Origin: Candidatus Levybacteria bacterium RIFCSPLOWO2_12_FULL_41_12
GTDB lineage: Bacteria > Patescibacteriota > Microgenomatia > Levybacterales > UBA12049
NCBI GenBank assembly: GCA_001784155.1
Contig: MFPL01000002.1
Span: forward strand, 108,520 to 172,519
Reading direction: 5' to 3'
DNA: 64,000 nt
Shown here: positions 2,474 through 27,510 of the stretch, one piece after another
Layout of the letters: each line of letters begins with the position of its first letter
Numbering within the stretch: the stretch's first letter is position 1
The notes under the pieces: generated by a model
Seen by the model: the letters and a program-made list of their open reading frames with translations, nothing else
What the model was told of the DNA's origin: nothing
Databases searched by the model: none
Translations under genes and position numbers: made by a program

Positions 2474-2934
2474 TTGATAGATTGTATCGTATAGAGGATT
2501 TTGCCGGCAGGGGCTTCGACTTCCACTTTTTCGCCGACTTTTCGACCTATAAGAGCTTTTCCCAGAGGCGATTCGTGTGATATTTTTTTGTCTTTTGGAT
2601 CTGCTTCCCATTCTCCAACCAACATAAAACTTTCCCTTTTACCGTCCACAGTGAGGGTCACAGTTGAACCCAGTTTTACTGCGCTGTGGGACTTGTTGTT
2701 GGTTATGATTTCAACTTGCTTTAATAACTCTTCGAGCTCATCAATTCTTCCGTCGATGAAAGATAGCTCTTCTTTAGCCACCACGTATTCTGCGTTTTCC
2801 GAAAGATCACCAAGGTTTCGAGCCTGTGAAAGTCGACCCAGAACTTCCGGTCTTTTTCCTTTGACCAAACCGTCGTACTCTTCTTTAAGCTCTGTTAGTC
2901 CTTCTCGAGTCAAATATATCTTCTTATTATCCAT
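2470..2934 (-). CDS. greA: Transcription elongation factor GreA
   Basis: 154 aa. N-terminal coiled coil with acidic tip (LTREGLTELKEEYD...GDLSENAEY) and C-terminal FKBP-like domain. A hairpin terminator follows at 2945-2963. Confidence 0.9.
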   Translation of the reverse strand: MDNKKIYLTREGLTELKEEYDGLVKGKRPEVLGRLSQARNLGDLSENAEYVVAKEELSFIDGRIDELEELLKQVEIITNNKSHSAVKLGSTVTLTVDGKRESFMLVGEWEADPKDKKISHESPLGKALIGRKVGEKVEVEAPAGKILYTIQSIN

Positions 2935-3009
2935 TTTTCCAAATAAAATCCCTCGGCATTTGAGGGAATGATTTATTAGCGAAAATGATATAGCAAACAG
3001 TTTTCTTTG

Positions 3010-18978: not shown

Positions 18979-19443
18979 TCAAGGACTTACCCTTTTATCT
19001 ATAACTTTTTTTATAAGATCAAAGTCAAATCCACGCCTTGCCAGAAGCTGAAAGAGTTTTCGGTAGACTTCTTTTGTTGATAGTTTTTCAAACCTTTTAA
19101 TATGCTTGTCTAAAAGCTTCAACGCAGACTTTTCATCAAGATTTTTATCAACTTTTTCTGAAAGTCCGTCAACTATATCCCGTCCTATTCCCTTATTTCG
19201 GAGTTCCATCTTTATAATACGAAACGACTTAGGCCTGTTTCCTGTTCTTTGCTCAATCCACCACTCGGCAAATTCAATATCATTTAAGAACTTCTTCTCC
19301 TTAAGACTTTTTATAATCCGATCGATTATAGATTCATGTATCCTTTTCTTTTTTAAATAATCAATGACTTCTTTTTCAGAGCGAGGACGGTATGACAGGA
19401 ACCGAAGCGCCAGATCATGATATCTTTCAAAAGTGAGATCCAT
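18979..19443 (-). CDS. recX: Regulatory protein RecX
   Basis: 154 aa. Repeated three-helix RecX-like segments (ALRFLSYRPRSEKEV...). Immediately downstream of recA. Confidence 0.75.
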   Translation of the reverse strand: MDLTFERYHDLALRFLSYRPRSEKEVIDYLKKKRIHESIIDRIIKSLKEKKFLNDIEFAEWWIEQRTGNRPKSFRIIKMELRNKGIGRDIVDGLSEKVDKNLDEKSALKLLDKHIKRFEKLSTKEVYRKLFQLLARRGFDFDLIKKVIDKRVSP

Positions 19444-20057
19444 TAGAATTTTATTCCCAATGCCCTAAGTTCTTTCTCTAAATTTTCTTGTGTGCTAAAA
19501 AGAATAGTTTTCATTCCTAGCTTTTTGGCGGGAGGAAGATTGCGTTCAAGATCATCTATGAATAGACAATTTGCGGGATCTTCCGAAAGTTCTTTTAAGA
19601 CTAAATCGTAGGCTCTTTTATCAGGCTTTACAAATCCACTGTATCCTGAACTAACTATCAATTCAAAATAGCTATCGAGATTAAATCTTTTTCTTTTGTA
19701 TTCAAGCCAGTCTTTACTTATAGTAGTAAGGGCAGCCAACCGATAATTCTTTTTAAGACTTTGCAAAAGCTTTAGCATATTTTCTTTAGGTTTTTGATTC
19801 TCCGTCCAGAACTTTTTCGCAAAGTCGATATCGATTTTATCTGTCAGGGAATATGTGAGGAATTTTTTCCAAAAGTCATCTTCTGAAATTTCTCCTATTC
19901 TAAACTCCGGCCAGGAAGTCTCCCATCCTCTCATTGAATTATCAAAACTTACGTTAAAATAGTCACAAAATTCTTTTACCTGATCTCCTGTATGACAGGG
20001 GTAATCATTTGTAAGAATTACATTTCCAAGATCAAAAATTATTGTGGGTGATAACAT
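19443..20057 (-). CDS. HAD-superfamily hydrolase
   Basis: 204 aa. Motif I IIFDLGNVIL with a C-terminal CLFIDDLERN (DD motif). Confidence 0.6.
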   Translation of the reverse strand: MLSPTIIFDLGNVILTNDYPCHTGDQVKEFCDYFNVSFDNSMRGWETSWPEFRIGEISEDDFWKKFLTYSLTDKIDIDFAKKFWTENQKPKENMLKLLQSLKKNYRLAALTTISKDWLEYKRKRFNLDSYFELIVSSGYSGFVKPDKRAYDLVLKELSEDPANCLFIDDLERNLPPAKKLGMKTILFSTQENLEKELRALGIKF

Positions 20058-21309: not shown

Positions 21310-21380
21310 CGGGATGTGGTTTAATGGTAGAATATGCGGCTGGGGGCCGTATGGTCTGAGTCCGATTCTCAGCATCCCGA
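21310..21380 (+). tRNA. tRNA-Pro (anticodon GGG)
   Basis: Acceptor CGGGAUG/CAUCCCG (7 bp) with discriminator A. U8 present. Short D-arm with G-U pairs. Anticodon stem UGCGG/CCGUA with loop CUGGGGG (U33, GGG anticodon, G37). Variable loop 4 nt. T-arm CUGAG-UCCGAUU-CUCAG. No encoded CCA. Confidence 0.6.
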
Positions 21381-21612
21381 CTGAAGCTCTAAAAACTGTC
21401 GGCTCCCTCCAAAGGCGGGCAGGCGTTTCCAATTATCTTGGGAGAAAAACGCAAAAATTTTAATGTACTCAAATGGCCGCCCTAGTTGTACTCAAACCCT
21501 TTCGGATCTGTCTAAAGCGGCCATTAAAAAACCGAAAGGAATAGTTTGAGTACCGTTTTAATATAGCAGGTTCACAAAGTTTTTCAACTGATATTTTCTA
21601 TATCAGCAGCTA

Positions 21613-23001
21613 TTAGAAAAAGGTTCGCATTTTTTCTATAGAGGTTTTTAAAACATTGTATTCGGTTTTACCATTGTCTTTTTGATGATGAATTTGATTT
21701 CTGATAAATGTATGTATACTAACCTCATTTGCATTTCTTTTATAAGGAGATTTTTTAGGTTCTTTTTTCTCACCAACAAAATAATCATTATCAAAATCTT
21801 TAATCTTCTTATCGTCTCCATTTATGAATTTTAGTTCTTCGAAAAGCTCGTTGTGATATTCTTCGGTCGCAAGATTAAAAGCTAGGTAATTTGTTTCGTT
21901 AGCTGAAATATAGGGTAAAACTCTTTTTTGTATCGCAGATGTATCCATACCGTTGTTATTGATTATGCTAATTCTTACATTACCGTTGTAAAATAATTGT
22001 TTTACTAAAAGAGGAGAGTGGGACGTAAGAATGATTTGTGCTTCTTTGGAAAATTCCAGTAAAAACTTAACAAATTTTTCCTGTAACGTTGGGTGCAGAT
22101 GAAGTTCGGGTTCGTCAATTAAAATTATTAATTGCTTACCGCTCTGCTTGGCTAAGTAAAAAGAATACAAAAGGGCAAAAATCATCTCATAGCCCGAACC
22201 AAGGTCATCCAATAAAATTTGCTGATTATTATCTTTCTTTGTGGCAAAGAATGCGTTTTTAAATGGTTGATAGTTATCTAAAAAATCTAATTTTATTTGA
22301 GAACCACTAATCTCATGAAATTTTTTTACAGCTTCTGACAGGAAGTTATTTTCAACTTTGTCTTTTTTGATTCTAGTATCTAATTCCTCATTCAAATTAT
22401 CAACTTGAGTTTTTTTTAGATATTGATAGCTAAAATCTTCCATCAATCTATCGAATCTAGTTGTGTTATAGGTGCCAGAGCGAATTTGAAAGATACGATT
22501 TTTGTCTAAGAATAAAACATCATTTTCGTCAAATCTTTTTGATTTCCAAGGATTATTTACCCCAACTCTTAAATCAGGACTATCTTCCTTTATGTTTTCG
22601 CCATCTGCTTGGATAAATCTGCGATCAAGAATGATCATGCTAGATAAATATGCCTTAAAATCTCGGGCTCTAATATTTGCTTTGAAAGAAAACCCATGCG
22701 CTTTGAATGATCCTGTAATTGTTTTTGTAACTTCAAAATTAGCTTTTGCATATAATTCAATTAGAATATCATTCTTCGGATCATTGAAGTCGCTAATAGA
22801 TACGGACTCTGTTTTATATTCCAATAATGGAAGTGCGAGAGCATCTAAAAGGGCTGTTTTCCCACTTCCATTTTCGCCCACAAATACATTTAATCCCGAA
22901 CCCTCGTTTATATTATCTGGCGTATTTATATCCTCAATTTCGAAATATTTTTCTGGTGAAAATAATCTAAAATTTTTTATTTTAAGTGATTTTATAAACA
23001 T
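21613..23001 (-). CDS. ABC-type ATPase of the OLD/AriA/PtuA/GajA-like family (no TOPRIM or HNH detected)
   Basis: 462 aa. N-terminal IKNFRLF...VFVGENGSGKTALLDAL (Walker A). Long coiled or insert region. LIILIDEPELHLHPTLQ (Walker B, D-loop, H-loop). About 110-aa C-terminal tail with no recognisable nuclease motif. Confidence 0.65.
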   Translation of the reverse strand: MFIKSLKIKNFRLFSPEKYFEIEDINTPDNINEGSGLNVFVGENGSGKTALLDALALPLLEYKTESVSISDFNDPKNDILIELYAKANFEVTKTITGSFKAHGFSFKANIRARDFKAYLSSMIILDRRFIQADGENIKEDSPDLRVGVNNPWKSKRFDENDVLFLDKNRIFQIRSGTYNTTRFDRLMEDFSYQYLKKTQVDNLNEELDTRIKKDKVENNFLSEAVKKFHEISGSQIKLDFLDNYQPFKNAFFATKKDNNQQILLDDLGSGYEMIFALLYSFYLAKQSGKQLIILIDEPELHLHPTLQEKFVKFLLEFSKEAQIILTSHSPLLVKQLFYNGNVRISIINNNGMDTSAIQKRVLPYISANETNYLAFNLATEEYHNELFEELKFINGDDKKIKDFDNDYFVGEKKEPKKSPYKRNANEVSIHTFIRNQIHHQKDNGKTEYNVLKTSIEKMRTFF

Positions 23002-23058
23002 AAATTCTTTAGCAAAATTATACGCCTGTGGTTATTGATTGGCAATTGATATTTATAT

Positions 23059-23619
23059 CTAGGATTTTGAGGTAACTTGAGCCAACTTTTCTCTAATTAC
23101 TTGTAATTCTTTAATCCTATACTCGTCATTTTCTTTTTTGACTGGAGCTTTCATTCCTTCCATGTTCAAATTACTTTCGTAGTTAAGCCCATCAACTATT
23201 TGTACTACTTTACTATCGTCTAGAGCTTTATCTGTAAAAGCTTTTAGTTTATGTTGGTCTGTAGTAGTTATTTCAACTTCTATAAATTTTCTCCAAACGC
23301 CATCATGCTCCCATTCTTTTAGTGTTTGAAATTGTTTTTCATTAAGTCCCCACAAAACTCCGGCTACCTGACCTGTTCCCGGTTTTACTGTGTAAGCTCT
23401 AAAATTTGACCCCCAAACTTCCAAAAGAGATTTTCGCGCAACTTCTGGAATTTGTTCTAGATCTTGAATTCCCAAAATCATTCCATCAACTCTTGCTCCA
23501 TATCCGCCGTCTAATTTTAAATCGTCACCTACAAGATTTGAGGCTCTTAAAATATCTACAATTCTAGTTTTTTCCCGATTGGCTCCGTATCCGAAAAATA
23601 AAATCTTTGCCATAAACAA
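23059..23619 (-). CDS. Gamma-glutamyl cyclotransferase (GGCT/AIG2)-like protein
   Basis: 186 aa. N-terminal ILFFGYGANREKTRI matches the AIG2/GGCT YGSN signature. Upstream of and co-oriented with the ATPase, with a 57-nt gap. Confidence 0.5.
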   Translation of the reverse strand: MFMAKILFFGYGANREKTRIVDILRASNLVGDDLKLDGGYGARVDGMILGIQDLEQIPEVARKSLLEVWGSNFRAYTVKPGTGQVAGVLWGLNEKQFQTLKEWEHDGVWRKFIEVEITTTDQHKLKAFTDKALDDSKVVQIVDGLNYESNLNMEGMKAPVKKENDEYRIKELQVIREKLAQVTSKS

Positions 23620-23707
23620 GTTAATATTATGTTATCACAAATTTAAGAAAAGGCTAGATTTTAGATACATATTGACATTATTCTTAAATGTCATCCATAA
23701 TAATCTT

Positions 23708-25078
23708 ATGAACCCATCAACCAATGGTGAACCTCCAGCGGGAGCAACGCCAGCAGAAGCAACAGGACAAGCTCCAGTAATTCCTACTTCATCAGAAACG
23801 CCTCAAACAGACCCAAGTCTTTTATCGCAAGACAGACATGGAGAATCACCCTTGTCTCATGAACCAATACAATCATCTTCGGAGGCTGCTCTTGACATGC
23901 TTGAAGCTAGAAGTAAGAAATTACGGGAAGCAGCGGAAACTCCAACCGCCCCAGAGCAATTCCGCAGTCAATATGAAACAGTGCAGCCGGTTTTATATGC
24001 CGCATCGCACAATAACGTACTTGGAGAGACAGAACGTACTCAAAGAGATGTTGTTGAACGAGGACAAACTTATATTACGAGTGATGCAGGCGCAATACTT
24101 GGATCAGCCGGCCGTCTAGAAAGACAAATAGAAGTTCTTTTAGCTGTAAATGGGATCACGGAAACAGGAATTGGCGATGAAAAGCAAAGACTTTTATCGG
24201 CTAAGGGATCAAAAGGCATGTCTATATCAGGTAAGCTTGCGCAAATGGCGCGTTTAGATTTTTCAACAACCGGAATAGATTCCCGAGGTGATTTAAGGGA
24301 CTCGCTCGAAGAAGCTGTTTTACATGCAAGAGCATTAAATGAAGTTTCTTCTGAGCTTATAGATAAAACACTTCGAAAAATGCGCAAGGATATAATAGGA
24401 TTAGGAGATTTAGATGATTTCCATAAAGCTGCTTATTTAGCTGCAGTAGATCAAGGAACCGATCCGCTAGATTTAGAGGGCGTTGCGGGACAGTTTGCTG
24501 ATTACTTAAAAAGAAAAGACGAAGCCATGAAAGCGGATCCAGATGCACCTGTTTTAGTTCGGTATGCAGAGATGGGTAATAACGTGCATACTATTTTATT
24601 GGAGAAAGCAGGAGAAGGAATTAAATTTAATTTTGATCCGGATTCAGGTAAATATGGAGCTAGTATAGAAGGTTCGGCTGCAACATACGAACCCGATACA
24701 AGCCCGTATACATCTATGTATCCCCAAGACCGTCTAGTTGGAAAAACAGGACCCATAGAAATTCCGCTAGGAAACGCTTTAGACTGGGAAACATATAATG
24801 GATTTACGGATAAGCCTAATTCTCTTGTGCCAATTACTGTTGGTTCGGATGCTATTATTGCTGACGTACGGGATGATCTAGAATATCAAGTTGGAGCTGC
24901 TGAAAAATATGGAGGCGCTGGGAATTTTGAAAACGCTGTAGTGAGGGAAGCAACATTTTTGGGCATAACAGATAAAGTTTTTGCAGGCCCGGAAGGAGAA
25001 AAACTTCTTGCTAATATTGCAGAATTTAATTCTAGACCAAAAACACCTCAGTATTCAGGTAATCGTTTAGATTATTAA
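23708..25078 (+). CDS. Hypothetical protein with disordered Pro/Thr/Ala/Ser-rich N-terminus; GC-richer than surroundings
   Basis: Start set at the ATG at 23708 (MNPSTNGEPPAGATPAEATG...). The longer ORF-track start overlaps the divergent GGCT gene. TTGACA-N18-CATAAT lies just upstream. No TM helices and no recognisable catalytic motifs. Confidence 0.5.
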   Translation: MNPSTNGEPPAGATPAEATGQAPVIPTSSETPQTDPSLLSQDRHGESPLSHEPIQSSSEAALDMLEARSKKLREAAETPTAPEQFRSQYETVQPVLYAASHNNVLGETERTQRDVVERGQTYITSDAGAILGSAGRLERQIEVLLAVNGITETGIGDEKQRLLSAKGSKGMSISGKLAQMARLDFSTTGIDSRGDLRDSLEEAVLHARALNEVSSELIDKTLRKMRKDIIGLGDLDDFHKAAYLAAVDQGTDPLDLEGVAGQFADYLKRKDEAMKADPDAPVLVRYAEMGNNVHTILLEKAGEGIKFNFDPDSGKYGASIEGSAATYEPDTSPYTSMYPQDRLVGKTGPIEIPLGNALDWETYNGFTDKPNSLVPITVGSDAIIADVRDDLEYQVGAAEKYGGAGNFENAVVREATFLGITDKVFAGPEGEKLLANIAEFNSRPKTPQYSGNRLDY

Positions 25079-25183
25079 CTATCCACCGTTATGAAAGGCA
25101 ATAATACTCACTAAAGATCAAACGCTGAGTAAAAAATTAACAGAGAAAGAAAAGATTATGACATTTCTTTTTCATGTAAAACT

Positions 25184-25816
25184 TTACTGCGAGTAAATCT
25201 GTAATCCGCTTGGATCGGAAAGTGTAAGTGTCTGACTGCAGGAATTATAATTACCCGTAACAATAACCGGGAAATTGGAAAATTTTGTATAGTCGACTTT
25301 TGAAGAAAAGGGCAGAGAAATTACGCTTTCATCATTTTTAACTAACACAACTTTATTGTGGGTTTGTTTGGGAGCAAAATAATCTAGGAATTGGGATAAA
25401 ACCGGAATTCCCGAAGACTCCTGCTCCATAACATTCAAAGTTTTGACAGTACCTATATAACTCTGTACTCCTTTTTCGCAAAGAATTTTTCCTCCTCCGA
25501 AAACTCCAAATACTCCAAGAGCCAAAGCTACTCCGGCAATTCCAAGACTTCCCTTAAGCGTGAAGGAAAATGCTTTCTGTCTTTTAATATCTTCCAAAAG
25601 TTCGACAATTTTTCGAAGGGGATTTCCTACGCGTACATCCAAAAGATCATCTTGACTCTTATGATATCTGACGTTGTCTCCGAAAAATTTATCGAGCGCG
25701 CCCTGAGGCTTTGGAGGACTGCCGGGTTTTTCGACATGAACAAAATGCCCCTCGCTGTCTCTTGGCTTACTTTCCGCAATTGTACTTTTTATCTCGCTTT
25801 TTACTTTTTCGGCCAT
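25184..25816 (-). CDS. Hypothetical single-pass membrane protein
   Basis: 210 aa. Central Gly/Ala-rich TM helix (GSLGIAGVALALGVFGVFGGG). Downstream of and co-oriented with the JAB gene. Confidence 0.45.
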   Translation of the reverse strand: MAEKVKSEIKSTIAESKPRDSEGHFVHVEKPGSPPKPQGALDKFFGDNVRYHKSQDDLLDVRVGNPLRKIVELLEDIKRQKAFSFTLKGSLGIAGVALALGVFGVFGGGKILCEKGVQSYIGTVKTLNVMEQESSGIPVLSQFLDYFAPKQTHNKVVLVKNDESVISLPFSSKVDYTKFSNFPVIVTGNYNSCSQTLTLSDPSGLQIYSQ

Positions 25817-25877
25817 ACTTTAATATAGCTTTGGATCTATAGCAATTGCAAGTTTACCTACTTATAACTTTGTTAAA

Positions 25878-26720
25878 TCAAGCTAGACGTGTCAGCGTCG
25901 CAGCAGTCGAAGTTTCATTGAAGTCTCCTTCGTACAATCCAAACTTTCTATTTCTGGCTTCGTCTATCAATTCGTCTCTCCAAATTCCACGAATTCTATC
26001 TTCAGATGTTCCTTTTTGTTTTTCTTTGTTCAATAAATGTAGCCCTCTACGACCAGCACTTCCTCTTCGTGGGTTTCTGTATTCTTCGTCCCAATTATTT
26101 GCAAGTTCAATATCCGAATTTTCTGCTACAACAAGTAAATAAATTTTATCTGATGCGATAACAATTGAGCAGATTGCAGAAGCACGACCGTCAGGCCTCT
26201 TTATTTGTGAAGCAAGATTATCAAAGTCAGGACCGCTGAATATAGCACCACTACTTGGGTGAGTATGTATTATTCCAAATAATTCTTCCTGTGGGAAAAA
26301 TTTAAATCCTGGGGACTGTTCTGTAGTAATTAAGTTCCTACCGAATACATAGTAGTCTGAAGCCCAATCAGGTTTATCACGTCGCCAATCTTCCTTTTGA
26401 AGTAAATCCTGAAGTCTCTGGGCTGTTTCTGATTCAGATAAACCTGTTAAATCCTCAAAAAGTGTTGCTCCCACAAAGTCTCTATGTTGTCCCTTGAATG
26501 CACCATCAATAGAAAGTTTTTCCTGAGTTCTCGTTAAAAATGCCATCTGTTCTGCATCTGTTTCGCTCTCCTGTTTTTTCATTCCATGAAACCCTGATAT
26601 AAGCTCAGGTTCATCGATCGCCACTGTTCTTGGAAGTTCGTCAAATCTCTTTCCTTCTAACGATAAAAGCGTAGGATGGGCTAAACCCTCTTGTCCTTCT
26701 ATGTTGGTTATATCCGACAT
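25878..26720 (-). CDS. JAB/MPN (JAMM) metalloprotease-domain protein, RadC/Mov34-like motif
   Basis: 280 aa. EELFGIIHTHPSSGAIFSGPD fits the JAMM motif E-x(n)-H-x-H-x7-S-x2-D exactly. The N-terminal roughly 130 aa are unassigned. Confidence 0.55.
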   Translation of the reverse strand: MSDITNIEGQEGLAHPTLLSLEGKRFDELPRTVAIDEPELISGFHGMKKQESETDAEQMAFLTRTQEKLSIDGAFKGQHRDFVGATLFEDLTGLSESETAQRLQDLLQKEDWRRDKPDWASDYYVFGRNLITTEQSPGFKFFPQEELFGIIHTHPSSGAIFSGPDFDNLASQIKRPDGRASAICSIVIASDKIYLLVVAENSDIELANNWDEEYRNPRRGSAGRRGLHLLNKEKQKGTSEDRIRGIWRDELIDEARNRKFGLYEGDFNETSTAATLTRLA

Positions 26721-27510
26721 AGGGTTATTATAGTAAATTCATTTTTAAATATCTCTATAATCAAGTGGGACTGGCTTGTGGATTGAGCTGGAACTATGAG
26801 GAACTAACCGAGGGTTTTTACCCTCGGTTTTTAAACCACAACTTGTGGGTACCACAATTTTGTGATAGCTCGAAGCTAAACTGTGGGTTTTGTGGATTTT
26901 AATTTTTTACCCACAAAACAGTTGTGGAGCGGCGTCCGCCGCCCCCGCCCCTCGGGATTTACGCCCTGAAAAGGAGGACTGCCGTCACGCCAAACTCTAC
27001 TTACCACCGACTTTCGGATAGGCAGTCCGACCCAAGCGAGCACCGCGAAAATTACTTTTAATTGAAATCCCGGCGGTGCGAGCCATTATGATGTCTCCCA
27101 AAGTTCTTGCCTAAATAGGGGTAGAATATCGCGGCGGGGGCAAAAGCGGATTACCCCGCCGACTGCAGGCGGTTCTAAGTTAGAAGAAAGTTAGCCCCGC
27201 CGAAGCGGGGCGAGTAAGAGACTGTAAAGAGTTTCTAAAAATGTACATCTGTGGGCGAAGCCGCCCCTAGGCGGCTCTCTCGCATAAAGGCGGGGTCGCC
27301 GCTCCTTTTCGCGGGTGGGTGGGTTATTAATTTGGTATAATAAAAATCGCGCGTTCCTTAGGGCATAAAATACCCCGAAGCAAAGTTTCACTTGCGACGG
27401 GGCAGGCAAAAGAGCGAGGCCGAAGGCCGAGCGGTACAATAATAGGACGAGCGAAGCGAGGACTACCTTTTAATAAAAGAAGTTCTAACTTTTTCGTATA
27501 TCACGACCAA
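26721..27510. other. About 0.8 kb noncoding block, locally GC-rich and dense in GC stem-loops; candidate structured RNA or foreign remnant, unassigned
   Basis: No credible ORF. ORFs 27191..27439 and 27511..27804 look spurious. Many perfect GC hairpins (CCGAGGG-UUUUUA-CCCUCGG, CCCCGC-CGAA-GCGGGG, GCCGCC-CCUAG-GCGGC). Long-range complementarity between CCACAACUUGUGGGUA (26835-50) and UACCCACAAAACAGUUGUGG (26909-28). GC runs such as GGCGGCGTCCGCCGCCCCCGCCCCTCGGG. Confidence 0.4.
26809..26831 (+). terminator. Intrinsic-terminator-like hairpin (CCGAGGG UUUUUA CCCUCGG UUUUU)
   Basis: 7-bp GC-rich stem followed by U5 on the plus strand. It would terminate a short plus-strand transcript starting after a TATAAT at 26753. 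Confidence 0.4.

What the first reader, a model, noticed from the sequence alone, without database searches (positions are those of the whole stretch)
21381..26720. Accessory island immediately 3' of tRNA-Pro(GGG), wedged between recA and the ribosomal superoperon
recA-recX and the r-protein block are core loci. Between them, right after a tRNA (a classic integration hotspot), sit five unrelated genes on mixed strands, including a GC-richer 455-aa gene. The five are an OLD/AriA/PtuA-like ABC ATPase, a GGCT/AIG2-like protein, a disordered-N-terminus protein, a JAB/MPN protease-domain protein and a single-pass membrane protein. The island is capped by the GC-rich noncoding block. None of these is a housekeeping function. 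ATPase-plus-effector and JAB-containing pairs are the typical architecture of anti-phage defence loci, but this particular combination does not match any named system I know.
Basis: partly seen in the sequence, partly recalled or inferred. Interest (0 to 1): 0.7.

Follow-up and report, generated by a model that had tools for sequence, protein, structure and literature searches.

The report
Gene patchwork with orphan restriction-linked ATPase
The stretch next to the proline tRNA is a real but loose patch of unrelated lineage-specific genes, not one new anti-phage system; its only defence-type gene is a stray copy of an ATPase that in other microbes almost always rides at the end of restriction-modification operons and probably carries an RNA-cutting tail.

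Summary
tRNA-Pro(GGG) (21310-21381), five ORFs on mixed strands and a GC-rich noncoding block sit between recA-recX and the ribosomal-protein operon of a Candidatus Levybacteria genome. The interpretation as one novel defence system does not hold: in about 60 related loci none of the five genes ever co-occurs with another.

- **GGCT-like gene:** belongs to a small family of unnamed metagenome proteins found in at least six other contexts.
- **456-aa protein and JAB-like protein:** near-orphans, one homologue each, each beside trxB elsewhere.
- **462-aa ATPase:** clearly acquired. It has the lowest GC of 66 ORFs, and relatives at 50-78% identity occur in several CPR phyla, Actinomycetota and Clostridium.
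  - In 27 of 36 informative loci it lies with type I, II, III or ISP restriction-modification genes; in 21 it directly follows one. In L123-L125 it sits between hsdS and hsdR, as prrC does.
  - Other copies stand alone beside serine recombinases or IS elements.
  - Its unannotated C-terminal domain keeps an invariant R-x4-H motif, so I infer a PrrC/RloC-like ATP-gated RNase, here uncoupled from any R-M system. This is not shown.

No integrase, R-M remnant or tRNA 3'-end repeat is present; a 22-nt copy of the tRNA's 5' half lies at 27120-27141.

The parts
21310..21381 (+). tRNA-Pro(GGG), left landmark of the variable interval
   Evidence: ARAGORN. Rfam tRNA 56.5 bits. The same tRNA species lies upstream of recA in the Daviesbacteria locus L005.
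21382..21612 (.). 230-bp spacer between the tRNA and the ATPase stop codon, with short inverted repeats (21472-21485 / 21512-21525)
   Evidence: Sequence; repeat I20. It shows no DNA similarity to the flanks of ATPase homologues elsewhere.
21982..23001 (-). ATPase gene, N-terminal ABC (Rad50/SMC-like) ATPase domain, residues 1-340. Walker A GENGSGKT, signature GSGYEM, Walker B LIDEPE and the H-loop His are all invariant in the family.
   Evidence: Pfam AAA_21 1e-27 and AAA_15 1e-26. PADLOC AriA, PtuA and GajA over the N-terminal region only. The PDB profile search hits PtuA, AriA, OLD, GajA and Rad50. Foldseek of the low-confidence model gives Rad50, SMC and PtuA heads as top hits.
21613..21981 (-). 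ATPase gene, C-terminal ~120-aa domain (residues 341-462) with no annotation. It carries the invariant motifs TEEYHNEL and IRNQIHH. Predicted HEPN-like RNase effector (inference).
   Evidence: No Pfam or PDB sequence match. Conserved in 30 homologues. R434, I437 and H439 are still conserved in plasmid homologues at 19-27% identity. The model is mostly helical with a hairpin before the motif helix, at pLDDT 33-63 only.
21685..21702 (-). Codons for R434-N-Q-I-H-H439, the R-x4-H motif
   Evidence: Translation; conservation.
23059..23613 (-). GGCT/AIG2-like protein, 184 aa. It belongs to a small family of ~180-aa proteins and is not a partner of the ATPase.
   Evidence: 37 homologues at 40-78% identity, found beside dnaJ-dnaK, clpB, rny-HU, argGH and His_Phos genes and never with the ATPase. 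FFGYGAN and E102 are conserved. The top PDB hit is human GGCT at E 0.04.
23708..25078 (+). 456-aa near-orphan protein with a Pro/Ser/Ala/Glu-rich N-terminal ~100 aa; function unknown
   Evidence: The word-indexed search found nothing beyond a fragment identical to the query. Full HMMER over 1.84 billion representatives found one real homologue, P0042 (43% identity, 478 aa), plus two fragments. P0042 lies downstream of trxB with no other island gene nearby. No Pfam, PHROG, PADLOC or PDB hit.
25184..25816 (-). 210-aa single-pass membrane protein, 61 bp downstream of the JAB-like gene on the same strand
   Evidence: One hydrophobic segment at residues 91-109. No family hits. No relative in viral contigs.
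25878..26720 (-). 280-aa JAB/MPN-like protein with an intact JAMM motif (codons 26226-26267)
   Evidence: Prok-JAB E 1.6e-4, below the cut-off. HTHPSSGAIFSGPD motif. The only real homologue, P0039 (45% identity), keeps the motif with one residue less in the spacer. It lies downstream of a trxB fragment.
26776..26927 (.). Array of seven CCACAA/TTGTGG hexamers arranged as palindromes, immediately upstream of the JAB-like gene
   Evidence: 7 of the window's 43 copies fall within 152 bp, where about 0.09 are expected; sequence.
26721..27510 (.). GC-rich noncoding block capping the interval
   Evidence: GC 0.49-0.56. No Rfam family. Folding z-scores of -2.0 and -2.4. Three cUUCGg hairpins when read on the - strand.
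27120..27141 (+). 22-nt imperfect direct copy of tRNA-Pro positions 17-38 (21 matches, two 1-nt gaps); a possible relic of an old recombination or integration event
   Evidence: Repeat D5. Local alignment score 32 is the best in the whole 64-kb window (next best 26). None of 1000 shuffles reaches it.

Best explanation
The interval 21382-27510 is a variable patch at the junction between the ribosomal-protein operon and tRNA-Pro/recA in a Candidatus Levybacteria genome. It was assembled from genes with separate histories and is not one system.

Four genes are sparsely distributed genes of unknown role that occur singly in other contexts elsewhere. They are the GGCT-like enzyme, the 456-aa protein, the membrane protein and the JAB-like metalloprotease.

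The fifth gene, the 462-aa ATPase, was acquired horizontally. It belongs to a widespread, unnamed family of ABC (Rad50/SMC-type) ATPases. These are normally the last gene of restriction-modification operons of types I, II, III and ISP. Some instead stand alone on elements carrying a large serine recombinase, or on plasmids between IS copies.

Proposed mechanism, by inference: the ATPase head dimerises and keeps the C-terminal domain inactive while the cell and its R-M system are intact. A phage-induced signal then releases the C-terminal R-x4-H (HEPN-like) domain. That signal could be an anti-restriction protein, free DNA ends or a change in nucleotide pools. The released domain cuts tRNA or other RNA and aborts the infection, as PrrC and RloC do. 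In this genome the gene is an orphan, RloC-like copy with no R-M genes beside it.

Shown: the gene map, the lack of co-occurrence, the R-M linkage and mobility of the ATPase family, and the conserved motifs. Inferred: the RNase activity, the trigger and the defence role.
For: **Patchwork**
- GGCT homologues lie in at least six unrelated contexts.
- None of the 51 ATPase loci holds recA, tRNA-Pro(GGG) or any other island gene.
- The 456-aa and JAB-like homologues each lie next to trxB, without the other island genes.

**Variable junction**
- L006 has rpsI and recA about 930 bp apart, with one NYN gene between them.
- L005 has housekeeping genes there.

**Acquisition of the ATPase**
- Its GC is 0.309, z -2.8, the lowest of 66 ORFs.
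- Relatives at 50-78% identity are named in Paceibacterota, Uhrbacteria, Blackburnbacteria, Aquicultor and Clostridium sp. CAG:389.
- DNA similarity to other loci stops at the CDS ends.

**R-M linkage**
- 27 of 36 informative loci have an R-M gene within 8 kb.
- In 21 of 36 an R-M gene lies directly upstream on the same strand, with a gap of 22 bp or less.
- L123-L125 show the order hsdM-hsdS-ATPase-hsdR.

**Autonomy and mobility**
- Large serine recombinases lie beside the cassette in six loci and in viral contig L149, which also has Mob_Pre.
- Distant full-length homologues stand alone on a Klebsiella plasmid between ISNCY copies and on L. helveticus pLH1.

**Effector domain**
- All ATPase motifs are invariant.
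- The C-terminal domain has many invariant polar residues, including R434-x4-H439 with Asn after the Arg. The motif persists at 19-27% identity.
- ABC-ATPase/HEPN fusions embedded in R-M operons are an established class (PMC3710099).
Against: **HEPN assignment is unproven**
- No HEPN Pfam model and no PDB sequence matches the C-terminal domain.
- The AlphaFold models are of low confidence (pLDDT 41.8 and 51.0).
- The HEPN assignment therefore rests on a short motif, predicted helices and context.

**Membership and context**
- The N-domain matches AAA_21 and AAA_15, not the AAA_13 model that I recall covering PrrC/RloC (searches list no such hit).
- In this window there is no R-M gene for the ATPase to guard, so it could be a functionless relic.

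**Gaps in the sampling**
- Close relatives of this species lacking the island were not found. All 24 contigs read carry the same arrangement, so insertion at this site is inferred, not observed.
Confidence: 0.6

Rival explanations
1. One reading: the five genes, or the pairs GGCT-ATPase and JAB-membrane protein, form one novel multi-gene anti-phage system in a tRNA-linked defence island.
For: - The GGCT-like gene and the ATPase are co-directional and 58 bp apart. The JAB-like gene and the membrane protein are co-directional and 61 bp apart.
- The ATPase hits defence-system models.
- The JAMM motif is intact.
Against: - No partner protein hits PADLOC.
- GGCT homologues never sit beside an ATPase in nine looked-up contexts.
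- 51 ATPase loci lack any GGCT, JAB, 456-aa or membrane-protein homologue.
- The ATPase's usual neighbours are R-M genes.
Confidence: 0.06
2. The whole interval is the decayed remnant of one integrative element that entered at tRNA-Pro. The recombinase was later lost, and the 22-nt tRNA fragment at 27120-27141 is what is left of the distal attachment site.
For: - A tRNA-derived direct repeat brackets all five genes, 5.8 kb apart. It is the best match in the 64-kb window and is reached by none of 1000 shuffles.
- Four of the five genes have low GC3 (z -1.7 to -2.4).
- Related ATPase cassettes sit beside large serine recombinases and abut tRNA genes in other genomes.
Against: - The repeat covers the D-loop to the anticodon loop, not the 3' end expected for an element lying 3' of the tRNA.
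- No recombinase or its remnant is detectable.
- The five genes have separate distributions elsewhere.
- Total GC of three of the genes is at the genome mean.
Confidence: 0.2
3. Nothing was acquired. These are ordinary lineage-specific chromosomal genes in a rearrangement-prone CPR genome, and the ATPase has a housekeeping DNA-repair role next to recA.
For: - L005 shows that the same junction can hold plain metabolic genes.
- The GGCT-like family recurs in 37 sequences.
- Rad50 and SMC are the top fold matches of the ATPase.
- The arrangement is fixed in all sampled strains.
Against: - The ATPase is 50-78% identical to proteins in unrelated phyla and has the most deviant GC in the window.
- It is embedded in R-M operons or mobile elements elsewhere.
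- It occurs as frameshifted pseudogenes in L137-L139, which a housekeeping gene would not.
- It is not linked to recA in any other locus.
Confidence: 0.08
4. The ATPase family is R-M-linked, but its C-terminal domain is a non-catalytic adaptor or sensor that docks onto methyltransferase or restriction subunits. On this view the orphan copy here is inert.
For: - No nuclease profile or structure match was found.
- The tight 2-13 bp spacing behind MTase genes suggests a physical complex.
- Some HEPN-like domains are non-catalytic (PMC3710099).
Against: - The family associates with at least five mechanistically different R-M types, which argues against a single docking partner.
- It occurs as a stand-alone gene on plasmids and recombinase elements.
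- The invariant Arg, His, Glu, Asn and Ser residues look like a catalytic constellation.
Confidence: 0.2

Closest known systems
PrrC anticodon nuclease (E. coli prr locus, type Ic R-M EcoprrI)
   Same: Both have an N-terminal ABC ATPase and a small C-terminal effector domain with an Arg...His catalytic-type motif. Relatives L123-L125 have the gene inserted between hsdS and hsdR, exactly as prrC is (PMC3710099). Both are single-polypeptide sensor-effectors.
   Different: The ATPase domain matches AAA_21 and AAA_15, and no PrrC/RloC-type model is listed. The C-terminal domain has no detectable sequence similarity to anything known. The family is linked to type II, III and ISP systems as well as type I. 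The copy in this window has no R-M neighbour. tRNA cleavage is untested.
RloC (stand-alone ABC-ATPase/HEPN anticodon nuclease)
   Same: A stand-alone arrangement without linked R-M genes, as in this window, in L149 and on the plasmids.
   Different: RloC is much larger and has a Rad50-like coiled coil with a zinc hook (PMC3458546 abstract). The 462-aa protein has no such insert. No sequence relationship was shown.
PARIS AriA, Septu PtuA, Gabija GajA, OLD nucleases
   Same: These give the best HMM and PDB hits to the ATPase domain. All share the ABC-ATPase sensor plus nuclease logic.
   Different: Those systems need a Toprim (AriB, GajA C-terminus, OLD) or HNH (PtuB) nuclease. No such gene or domain is present, and the matches stop at about residue 335.
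Other ABC-HEPN fusions of Anantharaman et al. 2013 (APECO1_4465-like, ERFG_01251-like)
   Same: The same predicted architecture and a mobile, R-M- or prophage-linked context.
   Different: I could not obtain those sequences to compare, so identity with either clade is neither shown nor excluded.
tRNA-linked genomic islands
   Same: The interval abuts a tRNA gene, lies between conserved loci, contains a compositionally deviant gene and has a tRNA-derived repeat at the far side.
   Different: There is no integrase and no 3'-end attachment repeat, and the cargo genes have independent distributions.

Membership tests
PARIS (AriA + AriB) | AriA-type ABC ATPase | tested here: inconclusive
   PADLOC AriA models score 9e-28 and 2e-26 but cover only residues 1-333. 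PtuA, GajA and NsnB models score similarly.
PARIS (AriA + AriB) | Adjacent AriB Toprim nuclease | tested here: not met
   None of the four other island proteins has a PADLOC hit to a partner nuclease; the only hits are three weak JAB matches (E 0.016-0.042) for the JAB-like protein. No Toprim or DUF4435 Pfam hit.
Septu (PtuA + PtuB) | Adjacent PtuB HNH nuclease | tested here: not met
   No HNH protein lies in 21382-27510. NCBIfam PtuA scores 57 bits against a cut-off of 500.
Gabija GajA / OLD family | C-terminal Toprim nuclease domain fused to the ATPase | tested here: not met
   GajA and Old model matches end at about residue 350. The C-terminal 120 aa match no Toprim model.
PrrC/RloC anticodon nucleases | N-terminal ABC ATPase with intact Walker A, Walker B, signature and H-loop motifs | tested here: met
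   The motifs are invariant in 23-30 homologues. The fold search returns Rad50, SMC and PtuA heads.
PrrC/RloC anticodon nucleases | Sequence membership in the PrrC/RloC family (from memory, Pfam AAA_13) | tested here: not met
   The Pfam scan at E <= 0.1 lists AAA_21, AAA_15, SMC_N, AAA_23 and others, but no AAA_13. No NCBIfam anticodon-nuclease model is hit.
PrrC/RloC anticodon nucleases | Gene embedded in a type I hsd operon between hsdS and hsdR | tested here: not met
   Not met in this window, which has no R-M genes. Met in relatives L123-L125 and near-met in L132.
PrrC/RloC anticodon nucleases | tRNA anticodon-loop cleavage activity | not testable with these tools
   Requires biochemistry.
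HEPN superfamily | R-x4-6-H motif with a polar residue after the Arg | tested here: met
   R434-N-Q-I-H-H439. The Arg and the second His are invariant across 30 homologues and two plasmid homologues at 19-27% identity.
HEPN superfamily | All-alpha four-helix core with the motif at the start of the last core helix | tested here: inconclusive
   The model shows helices 367-375, 380-394 and 400-411, a hairpin, then helix 429-438 carrying the motif and helix 448-461. pLDDT is only 33-63.
HEPN superfamily | Profile match to a known HEPN family or structure | tested here: not met
   No HEPN Pfam model matched any of the 30 members at E <= 10. The PDB profile search gave only chance-level hits.
GGCT / AIG2-like (gamma-glutamyl cyclotransferase fold) | N-terminal YGS/AN motif and a catalytic Glu | tested here: met
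   FFGYGAN (F6, F7, G8, Y9 and G10 invariant; A11 at least 90% conserved). E102 is at least 90% conserved and aligns with the human GGCT 'LDEQE' region.
GGCT / AIG2-like (gamma-glutamyl cyclotransferase fold) | Pfam GGACT/AIG2 score above the gathering threshold | tested here: not met
   20.8 bits against 22.8, and 16.3 against 27. The top PDB profile hit is human GGCT at E 0.04 only.
JAB/MPN (JAMM) metalloproteases | H-x-H-x7-S-x2-D zinc motif | tested here: met
   HTHPSSGAIFSGPD at residues 152-165. The motif is retained in P0039 with one residue less in the spacer.
JAB/MPN (JAMM) metalloproteases | Pfam Prok-JAB above the gathering threshold | tested here: not met
   21.9 bits against 25.
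JAB/MPN (JAMM) metalloproteases | Solved-structure match | tested here: not met
   No PDB sequence hit.
JAB-containing defence systems (CBASS Cap3, Bil and similar) | Neighbouring E1, E2, ubiquitin-like or cyclase genes | tested here: not met
   The neighbours are a membrane protein and a noncoding block. PADLOC JAB hits have E 0.016-0.042 only.
tRNA-integrated genomic island | Integrase or recombinase gene within the island | tested here: not met
   No recombinase domain is found in the five proteins. No remnant is detected by tblastn with recombinases from related cassettes.
tRNA-integrated genomic island | Direct repeat of the tRNA 3' end at the distal border | tested here: not met
   Only a copy of tRNA positions 17-38 is found, at 27120-27141.
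tRNA-integrated genomic island | Flanking core genes adjacent in relatives that lack the island | tested here: inconclusive
   L006 has rpsI and recA about 930 bp apart. L005 has about 7 kb of housekeeping genes there. No close relative (same genus) without the island was available.

The most novel reading that the evidence does not exclude
The 462-aa protein represents an undescribed, cross-phylum family of 'restriction guards'. On this reading it is a compact ABC ATPase fused to a new, highly divergent HEPN-type RNase. The gene plugs into the 3' end of R-M operons of every major type (I, II, III, ISP/IIG) and can also act alone on mobile elements. That would extend the PrrC paradigm from one type Ic system to R-M systems in general, including the tiny genomes of CPR bacteria.
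Probability: 0.35. Interest if true: 0.55.

Novelty: new variant of a known kind. Interest (0 to 1): 0.3.

Why it matters
As an 'island' the finding is ordinary. CPR genomes are full of sparsely distributed genes of unknown function, and this junction is simply variable.

The useful result is the ATPase family. It is common in metagenomes: 51 loci came from one scan, and single 90%-identity clusters were seen on up to 302 contigs. It crosses phyla and is tightly coupled to very different R-M systems, yet its effector domain is absent from Pfam. If the predicted RNase activity is real, second-line 'guard' nucleases of the PrrC type would be a general accessory of restriction systems, not an E. 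coli curiosity. It would also give a compact, testable single-gene defence candidate. For annotation, the result warns against reading any AAA_15/AAA_21 ATPase plus its neighbours as a PARIS-, Septu- or Gabija-like system.

Tried and rejected
1. **recA scan.** The recA-based scan of GTDB genomes mostly returned unrelated phyla, because recA is too conserved.
2. **Viral scans.** Scans with the ATPase, the 456-aa, the JAB-like and the membrane protein as single queries found nothing. Only the ATPase alignment found one contig.
3. **Structure prediction.** The single-sequence model was unusable (pLDDT 41.8). The model from cluster members reached only pLDDT 51, so the fold of the C-terminal domain could not be searched. 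Foldseek only confirmed the ABC head.
4. **C-terminal domain searches.** Pfam and PDB profile searches returned only chance-level hits. The selecase MJ1213 hit at E 0.47 was rejected because the domain has no HExxH motif.
5. **Rfam.** Searches at gathering and at E <= 10 found nothing in the GC-rich block.
6. **oriC reading of the hexamer array.** I considered oriC because of the DnaA-box-like CCACA core. I rejected it because the flanking genes, including the ribosomal-protein operon, all run the same way through it, and the cumulative GC skew does not turn there.
7. **Remnants and E. coli homologues.** tblastn with all neighbour proteins of the ATPase loci found no R-M or recombinase remnants in the window. 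The Klebsiella plasmid homologue has no match in E. coli genomes.
8. **Literature.** The Krishnan et al. 2020 ABC ATPase classification paper is not held in the library.

Full report
**Source and gene map**

The ATPase protein of the window is encoded, letter for letter, on contig MFPF01000002.1 of assembly GCA_001782595.1 and on many metagenome contigs. NCBI names the organism Candidatus Levybacteria bacterium RIFOXYA1_FULL_41_10, a member of the Candidate Phyla Radiation.

- To the left lie rny, recX, a HAD hydrolase and recA, all on the minus strand up to 21150.
- tRNA-Pro(GGG) lies at 21310-21381 on the plus strand.
- Five ORFs follow: the ATPase at 21613-23001 (-), a GGCT-like gene at 23059-23613 (-), a 456-aa gene at 23708-25078 (+), a 210-aa membrane protein at 25184-25816 (-) and a 280-aa JAB-like gene at 25878-26720 (-).
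- A 790-bp GC-rich noncoding block ends at 27510.
- A 70-aa ORF, rpsI, rplM, rplQ and rpoA lie to the right.

**Domain calls**

- The ATPase is a solid AAA_21/AAA_15 protein. PADLOC's AriA, PtuA, GajA, NsnB and Old models hit it, but only over the first ~335 residues.
- The GGCT-like call is sub-threshold in Pfam (20.8 against 22.8 bits).
  - The family keeps the FFGYGAN motif and a near-invariant Glu.
  - Its profile's best PDB match is human gamma-glutamyl cyclotransferase at E 0.04.
- The JAB call is also sub-threshold (21.9 against 25 bits), but HTHPSSGAIFSGPD is a textbook H-x-H-x7-S-x2-D JAMM motif.
- The 456-aa protein and the membrane protein match nothing in Pfam, NCBIfam, PHROGs, PADLOC or PDB sequences.

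**Composition**

The ATPase has the lowest GC of the 66 ORFs in the window (0.309, z -2.8). The '455-aa GC-richer gene' is 456 aa and sits exactly at the window mean (0.407, z 0.0). It looks GC-rich only beside the ATPase. Its third-position GC is in fact low, as it is for four of the five genes.

**Is the interval an island?**

Two relatives carry the same flanks.

- In L006, an uncultured bin with recA 67% identical, rpoA-rplQ-rplM-rpsI is followed by recA after only ~930 bp.
  - That gap holds one NYN-domain gene flanked by a 22-nt direct repeat.
- In L005, a Daviesbacteria genome, rpsI and recA are ~8 kb apart.
  - tRNA-Pro(GGG) again lies upstream of recA.
  - The intervening genes are ordinary: phosphoglucomutase, Sua5, a 2-hydroxyacid dehydrogenase, a LigD phosphoesterase and MazG.

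The junction is therefore variable in this group of bacteria, but what fills it is not always 'accessory'. All sampled strains of the Levybacteria species carry the identical arrangement, so no empty site was seen.

**Do the five genes belong together?**

They do not.

- The GGCT-like protein has 37 homologues of ~180 aa at 40-78% identity.
  - Nine looked-up places put it beside dnaJ-dnaK-glmS, clpB, rny-HU, argG-argH or a His_Phos gene.
  - It is never beside an ATPase or any other island gene.
- The JAB-like protein has one real homologue (45% identity), downstream of a trxB fragment.
- The 456-aa protein has one real homologue among 1.84 billion representatives (43% identity), also downstream of trxB, with unrelated neighbours.
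- The 51 metagenome loci that encode ATPase relatives contain none of the other window genes and no tRNA-Pro(GGG).

**What the ATPase normally does for a living**

I clustered the neighbours of the ATPase relatives and scanned the clusters against Pfam.

- The recurrent neighbours are:
  - an HTH controller protein;
  - N6_N4, Dam-type and EcoRI-type methyltransferases;
  - AlwI and DpnII-like endonucleases;
  - HsdM, HsdS and HsdR;
  - type III Mod and Res;
  - a SNF2-PLD protein paired with an Eco57I-type enzyme;
  - a type ISP enzyme.
- Of 36 loci with an intact ATPase and upstream sequence, 27 have an R-M gene within 8 kb.
- In 21 of the 36, an R-M gene lies immediately upstream on the same strand with a gap of 22 bp or less.
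- In L123-L125 the order is hsdM-hsdS-ATPase-hsdR. By the description in PMC3710099, that is where prrC sits in the E. coli prr locus.
- In L137-L139 the ATPase is frameshifted behind intact R-M genes.
- In six loci, and in one IMG/VR contig, a large serine recombinase lies beside the cassette. The viral contig also carries a Mob_Pre relaxase and has no R-M genes.
- Several cassettes abut tRNA genes.
- Distant full-length homologues (27% and 19% identity in the C-terminal alignment) stand alone on a Klebsiella IncF plasmid between two ISNCY copies, and on Lactobacillus helveticus pLH1.
- Source names place close relatives in Paceibacterota, Uhrbacteria, Blackburnbacteria, Candidatus Aquicultor (Actinomycetota) and Clostridium sp. 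CAG:389.
- DNA similarity between the window and these loci stops within 2 nt of the coding sequence.

The gene is thus a mobile, defence-linked module. The window copy is an orphan: tblastn with every neighbour protein finds no R-M or recombinase remnant in the window.

**How it probably works**

- The ATPase motifs are invariant: Walker A GENGSGKT, signature GSGYEM, Walker B LIDEPE and the H-loop His.
- Fold and profile searches place the head with Rad50, SMC, PtuA, AriA, OLD and GajA.
- Residues ~340-462 form a separate domain that is conserved over its full length in the homologues at 50-78% identity. It matches no Pfam model and no PDB sequence.
- The domain is dense in invariant polar residues. 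These include TEEYHNEL and IRNQIHH, that is R434-x4-H439 with Asn after the Arg. The Arg and the second His survive in the 19-27% identical plasmid proteins.
- That is the signature of the metal-independent HEPN RNase site.
- The best model (pLDDT 51, pTM 0.52) shows three helices, a hairpin, then the motif-bearing helix and a final helix. This is compatible with HEPN but far from proof.
- ABC-ATPase/HEPN fusions embedded in R-M operons (PrrC, RloC and others) are an established class that acts as a second line of defence when restriction is disabled (PMC3710099; bioRxiv 2024.01.29.577857).

I therefore infer, at about even odds, an ATP-gated RNase of that kind. Sequence membership in the PrrC/RloC family itself was tested and not met.

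**Integration signature**

- There is no repeat of the tRNA 3' end.
- The only significant tRNA-derived repeat is GGTAGAATATCGCGGCGGGGGC at 27120-27141. It is a gapped copy (21 matches) of tRNA positions 17-38 in direct orientation.
  - Its alignment score of 32 is the best in the 64-kb window; the next best is 26.
  - None of 1000 shuffles reaches that score.
- The repeat brackets all five genes, which keeps a single-integration history alive as a minority view. It is the wrong half of the tRNA for an element lying 3' of the gene, and no recombinase remains.

**Verdict**

The interpretation as a novel multi-gene defence locus is not supported. The interval is a patchwork of unrelated genes. 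It contains one orphan member of an unnamed but widespread R-M-linked ABC ATPase family, whose predicted RNase tail is worth testing. The island itself is of low interest; the ATPase family is of moderate interest.

Noticed in passing
window 26721-27510: A GC-rich (up to 0.56) 790-bp noncoding block lies downstream of rpsI. Read on the minus strand it has three cUUCGg tetraloop hairpins (CCGAAG at 27200, 27375 and 27420, which is 3 of the strand's 19 copies in 64 kb). Folding z-scores are -2.0 and -2.4. No Rfam family matches, even at E <= 10. Strain contig L003 has a ~38-nt indel near 27217. It may be an undescribed structured RNA.
   Followed up: partly
window 26776-26927: Seven CCACAA/TTGTGG hexamers fall within 152 bp, where about 0.09 are expected. 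They form palindromes such as CCACAAcTTGTGG, immediately upstream of the JAB-like gene. This looks like an operator or iteron array. The DnaA-box-like core made me consider oriC, but gene orientation and GC skew argue against it.
   Followed up: partly
window 27120-27141: A 22-nt imperfect direct copy of tRNA-Pro(GGG) positions 17-38 lies 5.8 kb from the tRNA. It is the best tRNA-like match in the whole window, and none of 1000 shuffles reaches its score.
   Followed up: yes
L006 9230-9910: In a relative, the ~930-bp gap between rpsI and recA holds a single NYN-domain gene (Pfam 1e-12). It is flanked by a 22-nt direct repeat, ttgacattcgggtagt(a/t)tttgg, that looks like a duplicated promoter. 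This is a small-scale example of insertion at the same junction.
   Followed up: partly
L137 3212-3854, L138 326-968, L139 709-1351: ATPase homologues broken by frameshifts into three reading frames lie directly behind intact methyltransferase and endonuclease genes. The guard gene decays while the R-M system persists.
   Followed up: no
L091 1827-3389, L100 4220-5749, L111 3124-5100, L134 4185-5633, L149 1872-3728: Large serine recombinases (Resolvase + Recombinase + Zn_ribbon_recom) lie beside the ATPase or R-M cassettes. L149, an IMG/VR contig, also has a Mob_Pre relaxase. Several cassettes abut tRNA genes (tRNA-Ser in L100, L104, L105, L110 and L112; tRNA-Pro(CGG) in L098; tRNA-Cys in L107).
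   Followed up: partly
L108 17-277: A partial ORF directly upstream of an ATPase homologue contains YRNKRVAH, an R-x5-H motif reminiscent of AbiU2-type HEPN proteins.
   Followed up: no
window 19443-20057: A HAD-family hydrolase gene is wedged between recA and recX, with 4-bp and 1-bp junctions. It is absent from the recA-recX loci of all other genomes fetched, apart from one weak unrelated hit.
   Followed up: no
window 2501-2971: A 156-aa ORF on the plus strand has by far the most deviant synonymous codon usage in the window (z -3.9). A tblastn hit from L126 lies on the opposite strand at 2476-2922, so the plus-strand ORF is probably spurious.
   Followed up: no
L142 2-451 and L143 4119-5129: The only homologues of the JAB-like protein and of the 456-aa protein both lie immediately downstream of thioredoxin reductase genes, in two different metagenomes. 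This hints at a second variable hotspot in related genomes.
   Followed up: partly
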